Below are positions 36,425 to 38,839 of a stretch of 64,000 nucleotides of DNA, piece after piece. Origin of the DNA: Escherichia phage 236Ecol005PP; sequence record PP434423.1; one strand, 5' to 3'. Each line of letters begins with the position of its first letter. Position 1 is the stretch's first letter. The position numbers and the translations under genes are program-made. Under the pieces are notes generated by a model. That model was not told where the DNA came from, ran no database searches, and worked only from the letters and a program-made list of their open reading frames with translations.

Positions 36425-36700
36425 TTATTTCATATTATTGAAATATTCTTCTGCGATTTCGTCGTTATCATGGTAAACTTTAGAAGACAGTTTAACATAA
36501 CCTTCAGCAGTGAACATGTTAATCACAACTTTTACAGTATACCACTGACCGTCTTCATTACCCATTACTGCGTAAGTTTCAAACATCGGATGGTCAGGAC
36601 CGATAACTTTAATATCATTCACTGTACGACCGAAATCTTCTGAAACGCATTTCATAAAGAAGTTGAACAGTTCGCCGTAATTATCCATTTCATTCTCCAA
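36425..36700 (-). CDS. small hypothetical acidic protein
   Basis: ORF track; 91 aa; downstream of early promoter. Confidence 0.45.
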   Translation of the reverse strand: MENEMDNYGELFNFFMKCVSEDFGRTVNDIKVIGPDHPMFETYAVMGNEDGQWYTVKVVINMFTAEGYVKLSSKVYHDNDEIAEEYFNNMK

Positions 36701-36731
36701 GTTGTTTTCTGTATCAGTAGTTGATATTGAT

Positions 36732-36760
36732 ATAGTACCATGGAAGAACAGGGATGTAAA
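36732..36760 (-). promoter_or_regulatory. T4-type early promoter
   Basis: minus TTTACA / 17 nt / TACTAT. Confidence 0.45.
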
Positions 36761-36895
36761 CCATTTTGTGAAAAAATTTTTTTAAAAGTTTTAGGGAATT
36801 CTAGGGCAGGGAGGGGCAATTAAAGGATAGGATAATATATTATAAAGGGTAGAAACTAAATGATGCCTAGAGAGGTCCAAAAAGGCCTAGATACT

Positions 36896-36922
36896 AAAAA
36901 GCCCCAACCTTTCGGCTGGGGC
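36896..36922 (-). terminator. strong rho-independent terminator ending the tRNA/small-RNA transcription unit
   Basis: minus GCCCCAGCC-GAAA-GGUUGGGGC followed by UUUUU. Confidence 0.65.
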
Positions 36923-36925
36923 TAA

Positions 36926-37205
36926 GCCTTGCGGCAACCTTGTCGGGGTTCCACCTGCTAAGGCAAGTGTTTGTACGAAACGCCGGGATTTGAACCCGGT
37001 TATTGAGCAGTTGACGCTACTCAATATTTTTAAAAGGCCATATCTCGACCATATCCGAACGTTCCGTCAAAAACGCTACTCGGCTTACGGCAAAGATATT
37101 TCCTCGAATCGATAATTCGGTGCGCCGTTTCTGCTGTGATGTAAGAGGGCATCAATAAACGCAAAGATTATTAACGCAATTCCTTACTCAGGGAACATCA
37201 GTCCG
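36926..37205 (-). ncRNA. candidate structured small RNA(s), tRNA-like (possible counterpart of T4 stable RNAs C/D)
   Basis: ~280 nt with no ORF in any minus frame; contains tRNA T-arm-like CCGGG-UUCAAAU-CCCGG flanked by pairable CGGAACG/CGUUUCG; bounded by terminator. Confidence 0.35.
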
Positions 37206-37210
37206 ACGAC

Positions 37211-37765
37211 TTACCGGTAGCGACCCGGTTTCTCATTTGGTATTTCAAATTGTGTAGATTTAGTATCTAATTTTTTAACTATGGAACTTATGTCATGAAA
37301 GAAAAACCATTCGCCATTTATATGGTCCTGATTATAAATGCTGTGCATATATTTTTCAAGTTCTACTGCATCCTGGGAATATCTAAATGATACTATTTTA
37401 AAACTTTTAAACGGTGAAAATGTATTTGCTGTTATAACTCTAACATCAGGTTCTATACTTCTTCCTATTTTATAATAATTAGGATTTGTAGTATCTACCA
37501 TTATGTATACGAAAGCCTGTCGATAGCTTTTTTCTATATCAAATTCATCTTTAAATTTCAAAAGATTTAGGGCGGCAGTCCTACAAAATACTTTCCATTT
37601 TGACAAGCGTTTGGCTTCAGTCATAGAAAAGAATTTTTTCTTATCTGTTATTTTAAGAAAAGCAACATTTTCAATTAGTTCTTGTGTTATTTCAAAATTA
37701 CCGCGGTATATTAATCCAGCTTTTATAGCCAAATTAATTTGGTCCCAGTCTACATCACTTCTCAT
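37211..37765 (-). CDS. T5orf172/GIY-YIG-like domain protein in tRNA region
   Basis: 184 aa; C-terminal FVYIMVD...NYYKIGRSIEPDVRV...E...H...GEWFFF pattern typical of T5orf172 (MUG113) domain. Confidence 0.5.
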   Translation of the reverse strand: MRSDVDWDQINLAIKAGLIYRGNFEITQELIENVAFLKITDKKKFFSMTEAKRLSKWKVFCRTAALNLLKFKDEFDIEKSYRQAFVYIMVDTTNPNYYKIGRSIEPDVRVITANTFSPFKSFKIVSFRYSQDAVELEKYMHSIYNQDHINGEWFFFHDISSIVKKLDTKSTQFEIPNEKPGRYR

Positions 37766-37785: not shown

Positions 37786-37862
37786 TTGGCCAGGGTGAAA
37801 GGATTCTAACCTTTAACCTGCGGTTTAGAGGACCGCTACTCTATACAATTGAGTTACACCCC
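37786..37862 (-). tRNA. tRNA-Arg (anticodon UCU), CCA encoded
   Basis: manual cloverleaf: acceptor CGGGGUG/CACCCUG, D ACUC/GAGU, anticodon stem GCGGU/ACCGC loop CCUCUAA, T-arm AAAGG-UUAGAAU-CCUUU. Confidence 0.75.
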
Positions 37863-37987
37863 GTAATTAGTTCACAGCAATACCTACTCCAACAATCAAG
37901 ATGTCTTCACACGAAATTAAGAGAAGAGTGATCAGTTCAACCACTATAATCGCGTCAAGTAGATATTAATGTGACAACTGTCACAAG

Positions 37988-38062
37988 TTTGGCGGACATG
38001 CATGGATTCGAACCATGGACCAATTGATTAACAGTCAACTGCTCTACCACTGAGCTACACAT
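37988..38062 (-). tRNA. tRNA-Asn (anticodon GUU), CCA encoded
   Basis: manual cloverleaf: acceptor GGAUGUG/CAUGUCC, D GCUC-AGUGGUA-GAGC, anticodon loop CUGUUAA, T-arm CAUGG-UUCGAAU-CCAUG. Confidence 0.75.
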
Positions 38063-38066
38063 CCAA

Positions 38067-38153
38067 ATTGGTGGGGAGTGATGGAGTCGAACCACCCGAG
38101 TCGCAATGACAATGGATTTACAGTCCACACCGCTACCTCTACGGGATAACTCC
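38067..38153 (-). tRNA. tRNA-Tyr (anticodon GUA), type II long variable arm, CCA encoded
   Basis: acceptor GGGGAGU/ACUCCCC, anticodon stem GUGGA/UCCAU loop CUGUAAA, variable arm, T-loop UUCGACU. Confidence 0.7.
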
Positions 38154-38165
38154 CCTAATTCGTAA

Positions 38166-38240
38166 TTTGGTGGCCCTGGGTGGAATTGAACCACCATCTG
38201 GCGATTATGAGTCGCTTGCTTGAACCTTCCAGCTACAGGG
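38166..38240 (-). tRNA. tRNA with CAU anticodon (Ile-lysidine type as in T4, or Met)
   Basis: acceptor GGCCCUG/CAGGGCC, anticodon loop CUCAUAA, T-arm GGUGG-UUCAAUU-CCACC. Confidence 0.7.
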
Positions 38241-38241
38241 C

Positions 38242-38317
38242 CTTGGTGCTGATTGACGGAATCGAACCGCCGACCTTCTCATTACAAGTGAGTTGCTCTA
38301 CCTACTGAGCTAAATCA
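38242..38317 (-). tRNA. tRNA-Thr (anticodon UGU)
   Basis: acceptor GCUGAUU/AAUCAGC, D GCUC-AGUAGGUA-GAGC, anticodon loop CUUGUAA, T-loop UUCGAUU; 1 nt from CAU tRNA (dimer). Confidence 0.75.
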
Positions 38318-38323
38318 GCAAAA

Positions 38324-38413
38324 ACTGGCGGAGGCGATAGGATTTGAACCTATGAGTCGCCGGAGCGACTGCCGGTTTTCAAGACCGGTGCATTAAACCA
38401 CTCTGCCACGCCT
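38324..38413 (-). tRNA. tRNA-Ser (anticodon UGA), type II
   Basis: acceptor GGAGGCG/CGCCUCC, anticodon stem CCGGU/ACCGG loop CUUGAAA, long variable arm, T-loop UUCAAAU. Confidence 0.75.
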
Positions 38414-38416
38414 CCA

Positions 38417-38489
38417 GTCTCCGCGGCAGGATTTGAACCTGCGACATTCTGCTCCCAAAGCAGACGCTCTACCAAACTGAGCTACACGG
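38417..38489 (-). tRNA. tRNA-Pro (anticodon UGG), CCA not encoded
   Basis: acceptor CUCCGUG/CGCGGAG, D GCUC-AGUUUGGUA-GAGC, anticodon loop UUUGGGA, T-loop UUCAAAU; 3 nt upstream of tRNA-Ser (dimer). Confidence 0.7.
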
Positions 38490-38499
38490 AGTAAATTAA

Positions 38500-38573
<74 letters not shown>

Positions 38574-38579
38574 GCAAAC

Positions 38580-38666
38580 TTTGGTACGAGAAGTGGGACT
38601 CGAACCCACAAGGAAATCATTCCGCAGCATTTTAAGTGCTGTGCCTTTACCAATTTGACCATTCTC
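38580..38666 (-). tRNA. tRNA-Leu (anticodon UAA), type II
   Basis: acceptor GCGAGAA/UUCUCGU, anticodon stem CAGCA/UGCUG loop CUUAAAA, long variable arm, T-arm GUGGG-UUCGAGU-CCCAC. Confidence 0.75.
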
Positions 38667-38667
38667 G

Positions 38668-38740
38668 CGCTGGGAATAAAGGACTCGAACCTTTGCATCT
38701 AGCAGTCAAAGTGCTATGCCTTATCAACTTGGCTAATTCC
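38668..38740 (-). tRNA. tRNA-Gln (anticodon UUG), CCA not encoded
   Basis: acceptor UGGGAAU/AUUCCCA, anticodon stem UAGCA/UGCUA loop CUUUGAC, T-arm AAAGG-UUCGAGU-CCUUU; 1 nt upstream of tRNA-Leu (dimer). Confidence 0.7.
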
Positions 38741-38839
38741 CAATTATTAACAAAGGCTCTCAAGCAAGAACCCTTGATGATAGAGGGTATTAATCAGTGC
38801 GATATGAGTTAATAATAACAAATAATTCTTAAAGCATAT

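What the first reader, a model, noticed from the sequence alone, without database searches (positions are those of the whole stretch)
36761..37210. ~450 bp without ORFs containing tRNA-like structure and a strong terminator
In an otherwise tightly packed genome this stretch has no ORF in any minus frame. It contains a canonical terminator (GCCCCAGCC-GAAA-GGUUGGGGC-UUUUU at 36896-36922) and upstream of it a tRNA T-arm-like element (CCGGG-UUCAAAU-CCCGG) bracketed by pairable CGGAACG/CGUUUCG acceptor-like strands, but with ~20 extra nt where D and anticodon arms should be. This is where T4 encodes its stable small RNAs (species 1/2), whose function is still unknown, so this is probably a homolog or variant of those RNAs.
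Basis: partly seen in the sequence, partly recalled or inferred. Interest (0 to 1): 0.45.

Follow-up and report, generated by a model that had tools for sequence, protein, structure and literature searches.

The report
T4 stable RNAs C and D
This gap holds near-identical copies of two small stable RNAs known in phage T4 since the 1970s (species 1/rnaC and species 2/rnaD) plus the terminator of the tRNA operon, so it is a known feature, although what these RNAs do is still unknown.

Summary
The window comes from a T2/T4-like Tequatrovirus, and the genes here lie on the minus strand. The flagged stretch aligns base for base with the end of the T4 tRNA operon.

- **rnaD (species 2 RNA), 37236..37119:** 118/118 identical to T4.
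- **rnaC (species 1 RNA), 37112..36974:** 135/139 identical to T4. All four differences are structure-neutral.
- **Downstream:** a 50-nt trailer, the operon terminator (36923..36895), and the early promoter of gene e.8.

One detail is wrong: the acceptor-like partner of CGUUUCG is the RNA's own 5' end (CGAUUCG, with two invariant U·U mismatches), not the internal CGGAACG.

Homologues from eight Tevenvirinae-type genera give a covariation-supported fold for rnaC. It has an acceptor stem, a 70-nt long arm, a 10-bp arm and a canonical T arm (98.4% of cells paired; 20 pairs with compensatory change). The two arm loops, UUGACG and CGUCAA, are exact complements. They change together to UUGGCG/CGCCAA in Marfavirus, which argues for a kissing loop. 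rnaC sits in tRNA arrays as if it were a tRNA gene, and Marfavirus encodes U-CCA at its 3' end.

Function is still unknown in the papers found. A tRNA mimic matured by the tRNA-processing enzymes is the best guess. Novelty: already known.

The parts
37119..37236 (-). rnaD (T4 species 2 RNA) homologue, 118 nt. It has a 5' hairpin, ACCGG-GUCGCUA-CCGGU (37229..37213), followed by a long irregular hairpin. The base of that hairpin (GUCGUCG / CGGCG-C-AC) is invariant and its tip is variable.
   Evidence: 118/118 identical to T4 rnaD (H101; alignment A1; T4 annotation). RNAalifold on 13 variants gives 34 pairs, 10 with compensatory change, including A-U/G-C/G-U at the base of the 5' hairpin. The single-sequence fold is not exceptional (z = -1.43).
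37113..37118 (-). A/U-rich spacer GAAUUA between the 3' end of rnaD (...GCGCACC) and the 5' end of rnaC. It is the likely endonuclease (RNase E-type) and RNase P leader site.
   Evidence: An equivalent 4-7-nt A/U-rich spacer follows a ...CCA end upstream of rnaC in most loci from the other genera; the exceptions are PEi26, Kosakonia 305, MY02 and Clarke. The RNase E assignment rests on recollection of the T4 p2Sp1 literature and was not checked here.
36974..37112 (-). rnaC (T4 species 1 RNA) homologue, 139 nt, with a tRNA-like four-helix fold.
   Evidence: 135/139 identical to T4 rnaC. MFE -52.4 kcal/mol, z = -4.44. Covariance model R1 scores 142.6 bits and finds a single copy in the window. 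On alignment A5, 98.4% of cells are paired against 35-48% for slid controls, and 20 pairs show compensatory change.
37105..37111 (-). rnaC acceptor-like stem, 5' strand CGAUUCG (nt 2-8). It pairs with nt 131-137 and carries two invariant U·U mismatches.
   Evidence: A4-U135 in T4-type sequences changes to G4-C135 in the 14 non-T4-type sequences of A5. The other four Watson-Crick pairs are invariant.
36976..36982 (-). rnaC acceptor-like stem, 3' strand CGUUUCG (nt 131-137), followed by U138 in the discriminator position.
   Evidence: Marfavirus homologues read CGUUCCG-U-CCA-A where the window reads CGUUUCG-U-ACA-A.
37035..37104 (-). rnaC long arm (nt 9-78). It is an irregular hairpin of about 25 bp with a conserved 3-4-nt 5' bulge just before the terminal 5-bp stem.
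   Evidence: Helices 3 and 4 hold 13 pairs; 10 of them show compensatory change, and 97-100% of cells are paired.
37065..37070 (-). Loop L1, UUGACG (nt 43-48), the hexaloop of the long arm. Proposed to kiss loop L2.
   Evidence: L1 is invariant in every lineage except Marfavirus, where it is UUGGCG. It is the exact complement of L2 in all 28 distinct sequences.
37001..37026 (-). rnaC second arm (nt 87-112), which sits in the anticodon-arm position. It is a 10-bp stem.
   Evidence: Helix 6 has 9 pairs, 7 with compensatory change, and 96.7% of cells paired.
37011..37016 (-). Loop L2, CGUCAA (nt 97-102), the hexaloop of the second arm. It is the complement of L1.
   Evidence: L2 is CGCCAA in exactly those sequences whose L1 is UUGGCG (A46-U99 becomes G-C). 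All 6 pairs hold in 17/17 sequences.
36983..36999 (-). rnaC T arm, CCGGG-UUCAAAU-CCCGG (nt 114-130).
   Evidence: Pair 3 of the stem is G-C in T4-type sequences and CIP9, U-A in 12 others, and U-G in Melville. The T-loop is UUCRAAU in most lineages.
36924..36973 (-). 3' trailer between rnaC and the terminator. It contains a 7-bp hairpin, CACUUGC-CUUA-GCAGGUG (36969..36952).
   Evidence: Fold. The trailer is conserved in T4 and RB69. It is absent where rnaC lies inside a tRNA array.
36895..36923 (-). Intrinsic terminator of the tRNA/rnaD/rnaC operon: AGCCCCAGCC-GAAA-GGUUGGGGCU followed by UUUUU.
   Evidence: Terminator scan. The homologous site is annotated as a terminator in phage SA20RB. In T4, transcription of the tRNA cluster is presumed to terminate after the species I RNA gene (PMC2330249).
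36732..36761 (-). T4-type early promoter (GTTTAC-N-TGgTACTAT) with an upstream A/T tract, driving e.8.
   Evidence: Promoter scan. The homologous site is annotated as a T4 early promoter in SA20RB.
36425..36688 (-). The downstream gene e.8, which bounds the locus. Taking the T4 ATG as the start gives 36688.
   Evidence: ORF list, alignment to T4 and T4 annotation.
37211..37765 (-). 184-aa MUG113/T5orf172-domain ORF inserted between tRNA-Arg(TCT) (37863..37787) and rnaD. It is not part of the RNAs, but it overlaps rnaD nt 1-26.
   Evidence: Pfam PF13455 (E = 2.6e-9) and PF10544 (E = 3.4e-6). It matches only 47 phage records. Homology to T4 resumes at ATACCA, the 3' end of T4 tRNA-Arg.

Best explanation
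**Shown**
- The interval is the 3' end of the phage tRNA operon. It encodes the two T4 small stable RNAs, rnaD (species 2, 37236..37119) and rnaC (species 1, 37112..36974). These are followed by a trailer, the operon's intrinsic terminator, and the early promoter of e.8.
- rnaC folds into a tRNA-like four-helix structure:
  - a 7-position acceptor stem made from its own 5' and 3' ends, with a tandem U·U;
  - a canonical T arm stacked next to it;
  - a long arm and a 10-bp arm in place of the D and anticodon arms.
- The hexaloops of those two arms (UUGACG and CGUCAA) are complementary and co-vary.

**Inferred**
- The two loops kiss within the molecule. The long arm runs about 20 bp out from the junction and turns at the conserved 3-nt bulge. 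The terminal stem, the 6-bp kissing helix and the 10-bp arm (about 21-22 bp) then run back, giving a locked two-helix limb attached to an acceptor/T minihelix.
- rnaC is cut out of the polycistronic transcript like a tRNA. An endonuclease cuts in the A/U spacer, RNase P makes the 5' end, and the 3' end is trimmed, probably back to U138 with CCA addition. The tRNA-like ends then protect it from decay.
- rnaD is a 5' hairpin plus a long hairpin, released by the same cuts.

**Speculative (about 0.3)**
- rnaC acts in trans as a tRNA mimic. It would occupy or divert a host or phage factor that recognises the acceptor/T-arm half of tRNA.
For: **Identity**
- The interval matches T4 over 544 of the 561 query bases at 95.2% identity.
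- It aligns without gaps to the annotated T4 rnaD and rnaC. rnaD is 100% identical and rnaC is 97.1% identical.
- All four rnaC differences fall in an internal loop, in pairs that stay paired (U-G for U-A, G-C for G·U), or in the T-loop (R position).
- Expression in T4: northern blot and RNA-seq show RNAC and RNAD as late RNAs (PMC9697503). The ~1.75-kb primary transcript is the precursor of the tRNAs and of species I and II RNAs (PMC2330249).

**Fold**
- The MFE fold has z = -4.44.
- RNAalifold finds 36-39 pairs, 19-22 of them with compensatory change.
- In the explicit pair counts, 98.4% of cells are paired against 35-48% in slid controls, and 0/500 shuffles reach the observed values.
- The covariance model finds exactly one copy per locus at 134-146 bits, and no match at E ≤ 0.001 in the unrelated loci that were searched.

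**Kissing loop**
- The two loops are perfectly complementary in all 28 distinct sequences.
- The Marfavirus clade has A46G together with U99C.

**Treated as a tRNA gene**
- In Karam-, Moon-, Gelderlandvirus and phage Ursula, rnaC lies between tRNA-Trp and tRNA-Gly, directly after a ...CCA end plus a 4-7-nt A/U spacer.
- Marfavirus encodes U-CCA after the acceptor strand.
- Homologue lengths of 138-141 nt are not multiples of 3 apart, which argues against coding.
Against: - The ends, the processing enzymes, CCA addition and any binding partner are all inferred.
- The kissing loop rests on one compensatory event, in a single clade. The same pattern would also preserve a DNA-level inverted repeat.
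- The papers found state that the function is unknown (PMC3014915, PMC9697503, PMC12685909). The T4 tRNA region is reported to be non-essential (PMC2330249).
- The very high identity among Tequatro- and Mosigviruses is partly regional. In RB69 the flanks are also 92-94% identical, so the identity does not by itself prove selection on every base.
- The Rfam tRNA model and ARAGORN do not recognise rnaC as a tRNA.
Confidence: 0.85

Rival explanations
1. rnaC and rnaD have no function in trans. They are by-products of transcript punctuation: tRNA-derived structured modules that supply RNase P and RNase E entry sites and a protected 3' end for the polycistronic tRNA precursor. They accumulate only because their ends are structured.
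For: - rnaC sits in tRNA arrays exactly like a tRNA gene.
- rnaD is restricted to Tequatro-, Mosig- and Dhaka-type phages and has a freely varying tip.
- The tRNA region is reported to be dispensable (PMC2330249), and the papers found report no function.
Against: - Where rnaC lies between two ordinary tRNAs (Karam-, Gelderlandvirus), the neighbouring tRNAs already supply the processing sites, yet the 139-nt module is retained.
- It is retained with invariant loops, an invariant tandem U·U and an invariant 5' UUCGAGGA across eight genera, while its stems turn over by compensatory change. That is more constraint than a spacer needs.
- A convergent rnaD SNP arose in all three lines of a T4-like phage evolved on ECOR34 (PMC12685909).
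Confidence: 0.3
2. rnaC and/or rnaD are base-pairing regulatory small RNAs that target host or phage mRNAs through their conserved single-stranded segments.
For: - There are invariant unpaired segments: L1, L2 and the A-rich linker UUUAAAAAU.
- Some papers describe them as 'small regulatory RNAs' (PMC9697503; PMC12685909).
Against: - The two invariant loops are complementary to each other and co-vary, so they are most simply occupied by one another.
- There is no Hfq-type module: mature rnaC ends about 50 nt before the terminator.
- No target was tested, and no trans-acting small RNA has been functionally characterised in T4 (PMC3014915).
Confidence: 0.08
3. The conserved TTGACG...CGTCAA pair and the surrounding sequence work at the DNA level, for example as an inverted-repeat protein site or a target for recombination or homing, rather than as RNA.
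For: - The locus is a hot spot for insertions. Different ORFs abut the 5' edge of rnaD, and a cassette with a duplicated terminator follows rnaC in many phages.
- SegB targets tRNA genes in this region (PMC2330249).
- The A-to-G plus T-to-C change also preserves a DNA inverted repeat.
Against: - Each hexamer sits exactly in the loop of a hairpin whose stem co-varies. In total 20 RNA pairs show compensatory change, which only an RNA-level constraint explains.
- The RNAs are detected as stable species in T4.
Confidence: 0.03
4. The stretch is a decayed or small protein-coding ORF. Some GenBank records annotate 44-58-aa 'hypothetical proteins' over it.
For: - TTG-start ORFs of 44 and 45 aa overlap rnaD and rnaC.
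- Several phage records carry hypothetical CDS over this stretch.
Against: - The substitution pattern is compensatory in RNA helices.
- Homologue lengths of 138, 139, 140 and 141 nt shift the reading frame.
- The ORFs are not conserved in other genera.
- T4 reference records annotate misc_RNA here.
Confidence: 0.01

Closest known systems
Bacteriophage T4 rnaC (species 1 RNA) and rnaD (species 2 RNA), the small stable RNAs of the T4 tRNA region
   Same: - The sequence matches: rnaD 118/118 and rnaC 135/139 identical.
- The order and neighbours match: tRNA cluster, rnaD, rnaC, terminator, e.8.
- The A/U spacer and the terminator are the same.
   Different: - A 184-aa T5orf172/MUG113 ORF separates tRNA-Arg from rnaD here and reads 26 nt into rnaD. 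In T4, rnaD follows tRNA-Arg after a single base.
- The base after ...GCGCACC is G here and A in T4, so rnaD has no encoded CCA-like end in this phage.
Canonical tRNA (Rfam RF00005)
   Same: - 7-position acceptor stem formed by the 5' and 3' ends.
- 5-bp T stem with a UUCRAAU loop directly abutting the acceptor 3' strand.
- Four-way junction.
- Placement inside tRNA arrays after a ...CCA end plus a short A/U spacer.
- U-CCA encoded in Marfavirus.
   Different: - No D arm and no 7-nt anticodon loop.
- A 70-nt arm and a 10-bp/6-nt-loop arm take their place, and their loops pair with each other.
- Tandem U·U in the acceptor stem.
- 139 nt long.
- Not detected by ARAGORN or by the Rfam tRNA model at E ≤ 10.
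tRNA-like domain of tmRNA (SsrA)
   Same: An acceptor/T-arm minihelix joined to a non-tRNA body, an RNase P-type 5' end, and a stable RNA.
   Different: - No tag reading frame and no pseudoknot series.
- No G3·U70 alanine identity pair; here the 3-70 pair is A-U or G-C.
- ARAGORN finds no tmRNA.
- Much shorter.
Bacterial Y RNA-like YrlA (Rfam RF02553), a tRNA mimic that binds Ro60/Rsr
   Same: The concept of a modular non-coding RNA with a tRNA-like acceptor/T module attached to a long helix.
   Different: The only Rfam YrlA hits in the window fall on the true tRNAs and score far below threshold. None falls on rnaC. No Ro-binding helix was identified, and E. coli K-12 lacks Rsr (from my own knowledge).
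Loop-loop (kissing) RNAs such as HIV-1 TAR/TAR* six-base kissing hairpins and phi29 pRNA interlocking loops (analogy from my own knowledge)
   Same: Two hairpin loops with six fully complementary bases. In phi29 pRNA, two complementary loops sit in a single phage RNA.
   Different: Here the helix lengths (about 20 bp out, about 21-22 bp back) fit an intramolecular kiss. Multimerisation as in pRNA is possible but untested. There is no link to DNA packaging.

Membership tests
T4 rnaC (species 1 RNA) | Sequence homology to the annotated T4 rnaC over its full length | tested here: met
   135/139 identical with no gaps. Covariance model R1 scores 142.6 bits.
T4 rnaC (species 1 RNA) | Position as the last RNA gene of the tRNA operon, followed by the operon terminator and e.8 | tested here: met
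   Window order: tRNAs 38742..37787, rnaD, rnaC, terminator 36923..36895, e.8.
T4 rnaC (species 1 RNA) | Accumulates as a stable ~140-nt RNA in infected cells | not testable with these tools
   Shown for T4 by northern blot (PMC9697503), but not for this phage.
T4 rnaD (species 2 RNA) | Sequence homology to the annotated T4 rnaD, immediately upstream of rnaC | tested here: met
   118/118 identical (H101). A 6-nt spacer separates it from rnaC.
T4 rnaD (species 2 RNA) | Directly follows tRNA-Arg, so that its 5' end comes from tRNA 3' processing | tested here: not met
   A 555-bp ORF lies between tRNA-Arg and rnaD. Only the last 6 nt (ATACCA) of a T4-type tRNA-Arg remain. This is a difference in context, not in the RNA itself.
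tRNA | Cloverleaf with a D arm, a 7-nt anticodon loop and a T arm, detected by tRNA models | tested here: not met
   ARAGORN finds 10 tRNAs, none of them here. Rfam RF00005 has no hit at E ≤ 10 in 36974-37236. The acceptor and T arm are present, but the D and anticodon arms are replaced.
tRNA | Acceptor stem formed by the 5' and 3' ends and stacked on a T arm with a UUCRANY loop | tested here: met
   Helices 1 and 7 each have a compensatory pair and 100% of cells paired.
tmRNA | tRNA-like domain plus a tag-peptide reading frame and pseudoknots | tested here: not met
   ARAGORN reports no tmRNA. The only Rfam tmRNA-type hit, tmRNA_permuted, lies on true tRNAs at 13.5 bits.
Intrinsic (Rho-independent) terminator | G+C-rich hairpin followed by a U tract at the end of a transcription unit | tested here: met
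   10-bp stem with 7 G-C pairs, a GAAA loop and UUUUU. The homologous site is annotated as a terminator in SA20RB.
Rfam families in general | A match at gathering score to any curated RNA family | tested here: not met
   Within 36761-37236 the only matches are chance-level (isrK 15.1 bits, anti-hemB 14.2 bits). Rfam 15 appears to hold no model for rnaC or rnaD.

The most novel reading that the evidence does not exclude
rnaC is a purpose-built tRNA decoy. An acceptor/T-arm minihelix, probably CCA-tailed, is attached to a rigid two-helix limb locked by a 6-bp kissing loop. This lets it engage a factor that reads the top half of tRNA, such as a host tRNA-directed defence nuclease, a repair or CCA enzyme, or a phage protein, without entering translation. 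Alternatively, the two complementary loops pair between molecules and assemble rnaC into dimers or rings. Either reading would finally give a function to an RNA known for 50 years.
Probability: 0.15. Interest if true: 0.65.

Novelty: already known. Interest (0 to 1): 0.27.

Why it matters
As a genome feature this is ordinary.

The remaining value is that the function of these RNAs is a 50-year-old open question. The comparative data gathered here reduce it to concrete, cheap tests:
- a covariation-supported fold;
- an acceptor stem with an invariant tandem U·U;
- two invariant, mutually complementary, co-varying hexaloops;
- an encoded U-CCA in one genus;
- placement of rnaC as a tRNA surrogate inside tRNA arrays in several genera.

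I could not establish whether this fold, and the loop-loop pairing in particular, has already been published. The original 1970s sequence papers are not in the searchable library.

Tried and rejected
Rejected. It is broken in most genera. It does explain why ARAGORN calls a 95-nt 'tRNA-Met' in phage id4496.
2. **Rfam scan at E ≤ 10.** No family matches rnaC or rnaD.
3. **IMG/VR scan with the loop pattern TTGACG..CGTCAA..GGTTCRAATCC.** The 11 new loci were all chance matches, nine of them one conserved non-homologous sequence.
4. **IMG/VR scan with the T-arm/acceptor pattern.** It also picked up three unrelated loci with a matching T-arm/acceptor sequence, two of them with a complementary CGGAACG upstream (L013, L018, L020). 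The covariance model does not score them.
5. **Scan of 185,579 bacterial and archaeal genomes with a strict rnaC pattern.** No match. No cellular source was found, but the pattern is strict.
6. **Using RB69 (97.8% rnaC identity) as proof of extreme selection.** Tempered, because the RB69 flanks are also 92-94% identical.
7. **rnaD as a second tRNA-like RNA.** Rejected. It has no T arm, its 5' end is not paired to its 3' end, and its single-sequence fold has z = -1.43.
8. **A late promoter (TATAAATA) just upstream of rnaD.** None lies between 33748 and 39081.
9. **Literature search for a described function.** Five searches found only statements that the function is unknown.
Full report
**What is in the sequence.** On the minus strand, 37210..36761 has no ORF of 60 aa or more, only TTG-start ORFs of 29-55 aa. 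So is the T-arm-like CCGGG-UUCAAAU-CCCGG at 36999..36983. ARAGORN finds ten tRNAs at 38742..37787 but nothing in the interval. An Rfam scan at E ≤ 10 finds only noise there.

**Identity.** A blastn search of 37260..36700 against 50,697 phage records hits 817 records, nearly all of them T4-like phages of Enterobacterales. T4 matches over 544 of the 561 query bases at 95.2% identity. In T4 record MT984581 the matched stretch is annotated tRNA-Arg / rnaD ('species 2 RNA') / rnaC ('species 1 RNA') / e.8.

The pairwise alignment places rnaD at window 37236..37119 and rnaC at 37112..36974. rnaD is 118/118 identical. rnaC is 135/139 identical. Its four differences are as follows:
- C66, in a 1×1 internal loop.
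- G105, which keeps the pair with U94 as U-G instead of U-A.
- C108, which turns G91·U108 into G-C.
- A122, at the R position of the T-loop.

The window's tRNA set (Gln, Leu, Gly, Pro, Ser, Thr, Met, Tyr, Asn, Arg, no segB) resembles the T2L arrangement described in PMC2330249. That paper also states that the T4 cluster is made as a ~1.75-kb primary transcript, presumed to terminate after the species I gene. This transcript is the precursor of the tRNAs and of species I and II RNAs.

Downstream of the terminator lies a T4-type early promoter (GTTTAC...TACTAT, 36761..36732) for e.8. The homologous site is annotated as such in phage SA20RB.

**Boundary correction.** The non-coding unit begins 26 nt upstream of the flagged interval. 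A 184-aa ORF (37765..37211) with a MUG113/T5orf172 domain lies between tRNA-Arg(TCT) and rnaD. It occurs in only 47 phage records. Homology to T4 resumes at ATACCA, the last six bases of T4 tRNA-Arg. The ORF uses rnaD nt 1-26 as its last eight codons and stop.

**rnaC structure.** The MFE fold of the 139-nt RNA (-52.4 kcal/mol, z = -4.44) is cloverleaf-like:
- Acceptor stem: nt 2-8 with nt 131-137 (CGAUUCG/CGUUUCG, with U5·U134 and U6·U133).
- Long arm: nt 9-78.
- A-rich linker: nt 79-86.
- 10-bp arm: nt 87-112.
- T arm: nt 114-130.

I collected homologues from the annotated phage collection, IMG/VR and metagenomes. This gave 28 distinct sequences. They come from Tequatro-, Mosig-, Karam-, Moon-, Kanagawa-, Gelderland- and Marfavirus, a VR25-like group and phage Ursula.

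RNAalifold predicts the same architecture, with 36-39 pairs of which 19-22 show compensatory change. Explicit counting on 17 sequences gives 98.4% of cells paired against 35-48% when partners are slid by 1-3 columns. Twenty pairs change on both sides, and 0/500 shuffles reach the observed values.

The acceptor stem co-varies: A4-U135 in T4-type sequences becomes G4-C135 elsewhere. The two U·U mismatches are invariant. The T stem co-varies G-C to U-A.

It gives an A·C mismatch in Karam- and Moonvirus, and the internal strand is unrelated in Kanagawa-, Marfa- and Gelderlandvirus. It does explain a spurious 95-nt 'tRNA-Met' called by ARAGORN in phage id4496.

A covariance model built from the alignment finds one copy per locus (134-146 bits). 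It finds one copy in the window, at 37112..36974 (142.6 bits). The only other match in the window at E ≤ 10 is tRNA-Asn, at E = 0.13.

**Loop-loop pairing.** The hexaloop of the long arm (UUGACG, nt 43-48, 37070..37065) is the exact reverse complement of the hexaloop of the second arm (CGUCAA, nt 97-102, 37016..37011). Both are invariant while their stems turn over. The exception is the Marfavirus clade, where they read UUGGCG and CGCCAA. That is a compensatory A46-U99 to G-C change.

This is a single evolutionary event, so the evidence is good but not conclusive. Two specified hexaloops would be complementary by chance about once in 4,096.

Geometry (inference): from the junction, the long arm runs 3+7+6+4 = 20 bp to a conserved 3-4-nt bulge. 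The terminal stem (5-6 bp), the kissing helix (6 bp) and the second arm (10 bp) add up to 21-22 bp back to the junction. An intramolecular kiss would therefore close a two-helix limb. Intermolecular pairing into dimers or rings is not excluded.

**Treated like a tRNA gene.**
- In Karam-, Moon-, Gelderlandvirus and phage Ursula, rnaC lies between tRNA-Trp and tRNA-Gly. In Marfavirus EI it directly follows a tRNA. In most loci it comes 4-7 A/U-rich nucleotides after a ...CCA end.
- In Tequatrovirus the same spacer follows rnaD (...GCGCACC-GAAUUA-UCGA).
- After the acceptor 3' strand, T4-type phages read U-ACA-A whereas Marfavirus reads U-CCA-A. This suggests a mature 3' end of U138 plus CCA, obtained in T4-type phages by trimming and CCA addition. 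T4 tRNA-Pro and tRNA-Ser are handled this way (PMC11143913).
- Cleavage by RNase E in the spacer and by RNase P at the 5' end is what I recall from the T4 'p2Sp1' literature. I could not check this here.

**rnaD.** Sixteen variants share three parts:
- a conserved 5' part, AAGAA-ACCGG-GUCGCUA-CCGGU-AAGUCGUCGGACUGAUGUUCCCUG;
- a conserved 3' part, AUCACAGCAGAAACGGCGCACC;
- a variable central hairpin.

RNAalifold on 13 of these variants gives a 5' hairpin (its closing pair co-varies A-U/G-C/G-U) and a long irregular hairpin. There are 34 pairs in total, 10 with compensatory change. It is not tRNA-like. It is much less conserved than rnaC: 402 of 734 records are 80-90% identical, whereas 680 of 743 are ≥95% identical for rnaC. 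No rnaD-like sequence precedes rnaC in the loci examined from the other genera. Its 5' edge is an insertion hot spot, with different ORFs ending right at AAGAA-ACCGG.

**Function.** The papers I could search state that the roles of RNAC and RNAD are unknown (PMC3014915; PMC9697503; PMC12685909). The last of these reports one convergent SNP in rnaD in all three lines of a T4-like phage evolved on the semi-permissive host ECOR34. That hints at a host-dependent role.

My ranking:
1. Identity and fold, as described: confidence about 0.95.
2. Maturation by the tRNA-processing machinery: likely, about 0.7.
3. Trans-acting tRNA mimic that engages a factor reading the acceptor/T half of tRNA: about 0.3.
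4. No trans function, processing module only: about 0.3.
5. Base-pairing small RNA: under 0.1.
6. DNA-level element or decayed ORF: a few per cent. This is contradicted by 20 compensatory RNA pairs and by length differences that shift the reading frame.

**Caveat on conservation.** RB69 rnaC is 97.8% identical, but the whole RB69 segment from rnaD to e.8 is 92-94% identical. Regional exchange therefore contributes to that figure. The stronger argument for selection is retention of the core across genera whose flanks no longer align.

**Verdict.** This is a correctly recognised, already known feature: the T4 rnaD/rnaC locus with its terminator. The acceptor-strand assignment needed correcting, and the unit starts at 37236 rather than 37210. 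The covariation-supported fold and the co-varying complementary loops are the only possibly new points. I could not verify whether they are unpublished.

Noticed in passing
window 37211-37765 (-): A 184-aa ORF with a MUG113/T5orf172 (GIY-YIG-related) domain is inserted between tRNA-Arg(TCT) and rnaD. It occurs in only 47 phage records. Its last 8 codons and stop are rnaD nt 1-26, and T4 homology resumes at ATACCA, the 3' end of T4 tRNA-Arg. It looks like a mobile, homing-type cassette.
   Followed up: partly
window 37331-37359 (-): A near-consensus sigma-70 promoter match (TTGAAA-17 nt-TATAAT, 11/12) lies inside the T5orf172 ORF, about 95 nt upstream of rnaD. It could drive rnaD and rnaC independently of the tRNA cluster in this phage, or it could be chance in A/T-rich DNA.
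   Followed up: no
L002 (phage SA20RB) 1840-2410, compared with window 36890-36925: In many Tequatroviruses a ~550-bp cassette (TATAAATA late promoter plus a 158-aa ORF) sits immediately after the rnaC terminator and is flanked by a duplicated copy of that terminator. It is absent from the window and from T4.
   Followed up: partly
L006, L007, L050, L051, rnaC nt ~68-75: Kanagawa-, Gelderlandvirus and Ursula rnaC carry a second (U/C/G)UGACGG motif at the 3' base of the long arm. It could compete with loop L1 for loop L2. T4-type and Marfavirus lack it. Unexplained.
   Followed up: no
L003 1546-1640 (Enterobacter phage vB_Ecl_id4496): The 3' 95 nt of the rnaC homologue are annotated as, and called by ARAGORN as, 'tRNA-Met (cat)'. 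This is an artefact of the internal CGGAACG pairing with CGUUCCG.
   Followed up: yes
L034 and L035, ~70 nt upstream of rnaC (Klebsiella phages MY02, Clarke_MM3): A ~70-nt element, GGGGUGG...GCCCACCC, lies between a tRNA...CCA end and rnaC. It may be a functional analogue of rnaD in Marfavirus.
   Followed up: no
window 36924-36973 (-): The 50-nt trailer between rnaC and the terminator contains a 7-bp hairpin (CACUUGC-CUUA-GCAGGUG). Once rnaC is released, the trailer plus terminator would be a ~75-nt terminator-ended fragment that might persist as an RNA of its own.
   Followed up: no
window 36762-36894 (-): A pyrimidine-rich ~130-nt spacer (about 93% identical to T4) lies between the terminator and the e.8 promoter. 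It has no ORF and I found no recognised element in it.
   Followed up: no
L013, L018, L020 (IMG/VR contigs): Unrelated phage contigs carry tRNA-like sequences with a T arm CCGG-UUCGAAU-CCGG followed by CGUUCCG; L013 and L020 also have the complementary strand CGGAACG upstream. This is the same acceptor sequence as the internal CGGAACG plus the 3' strand of rnaC, and may hint at the tRNA from which rnaC descended.
   Followed up: no
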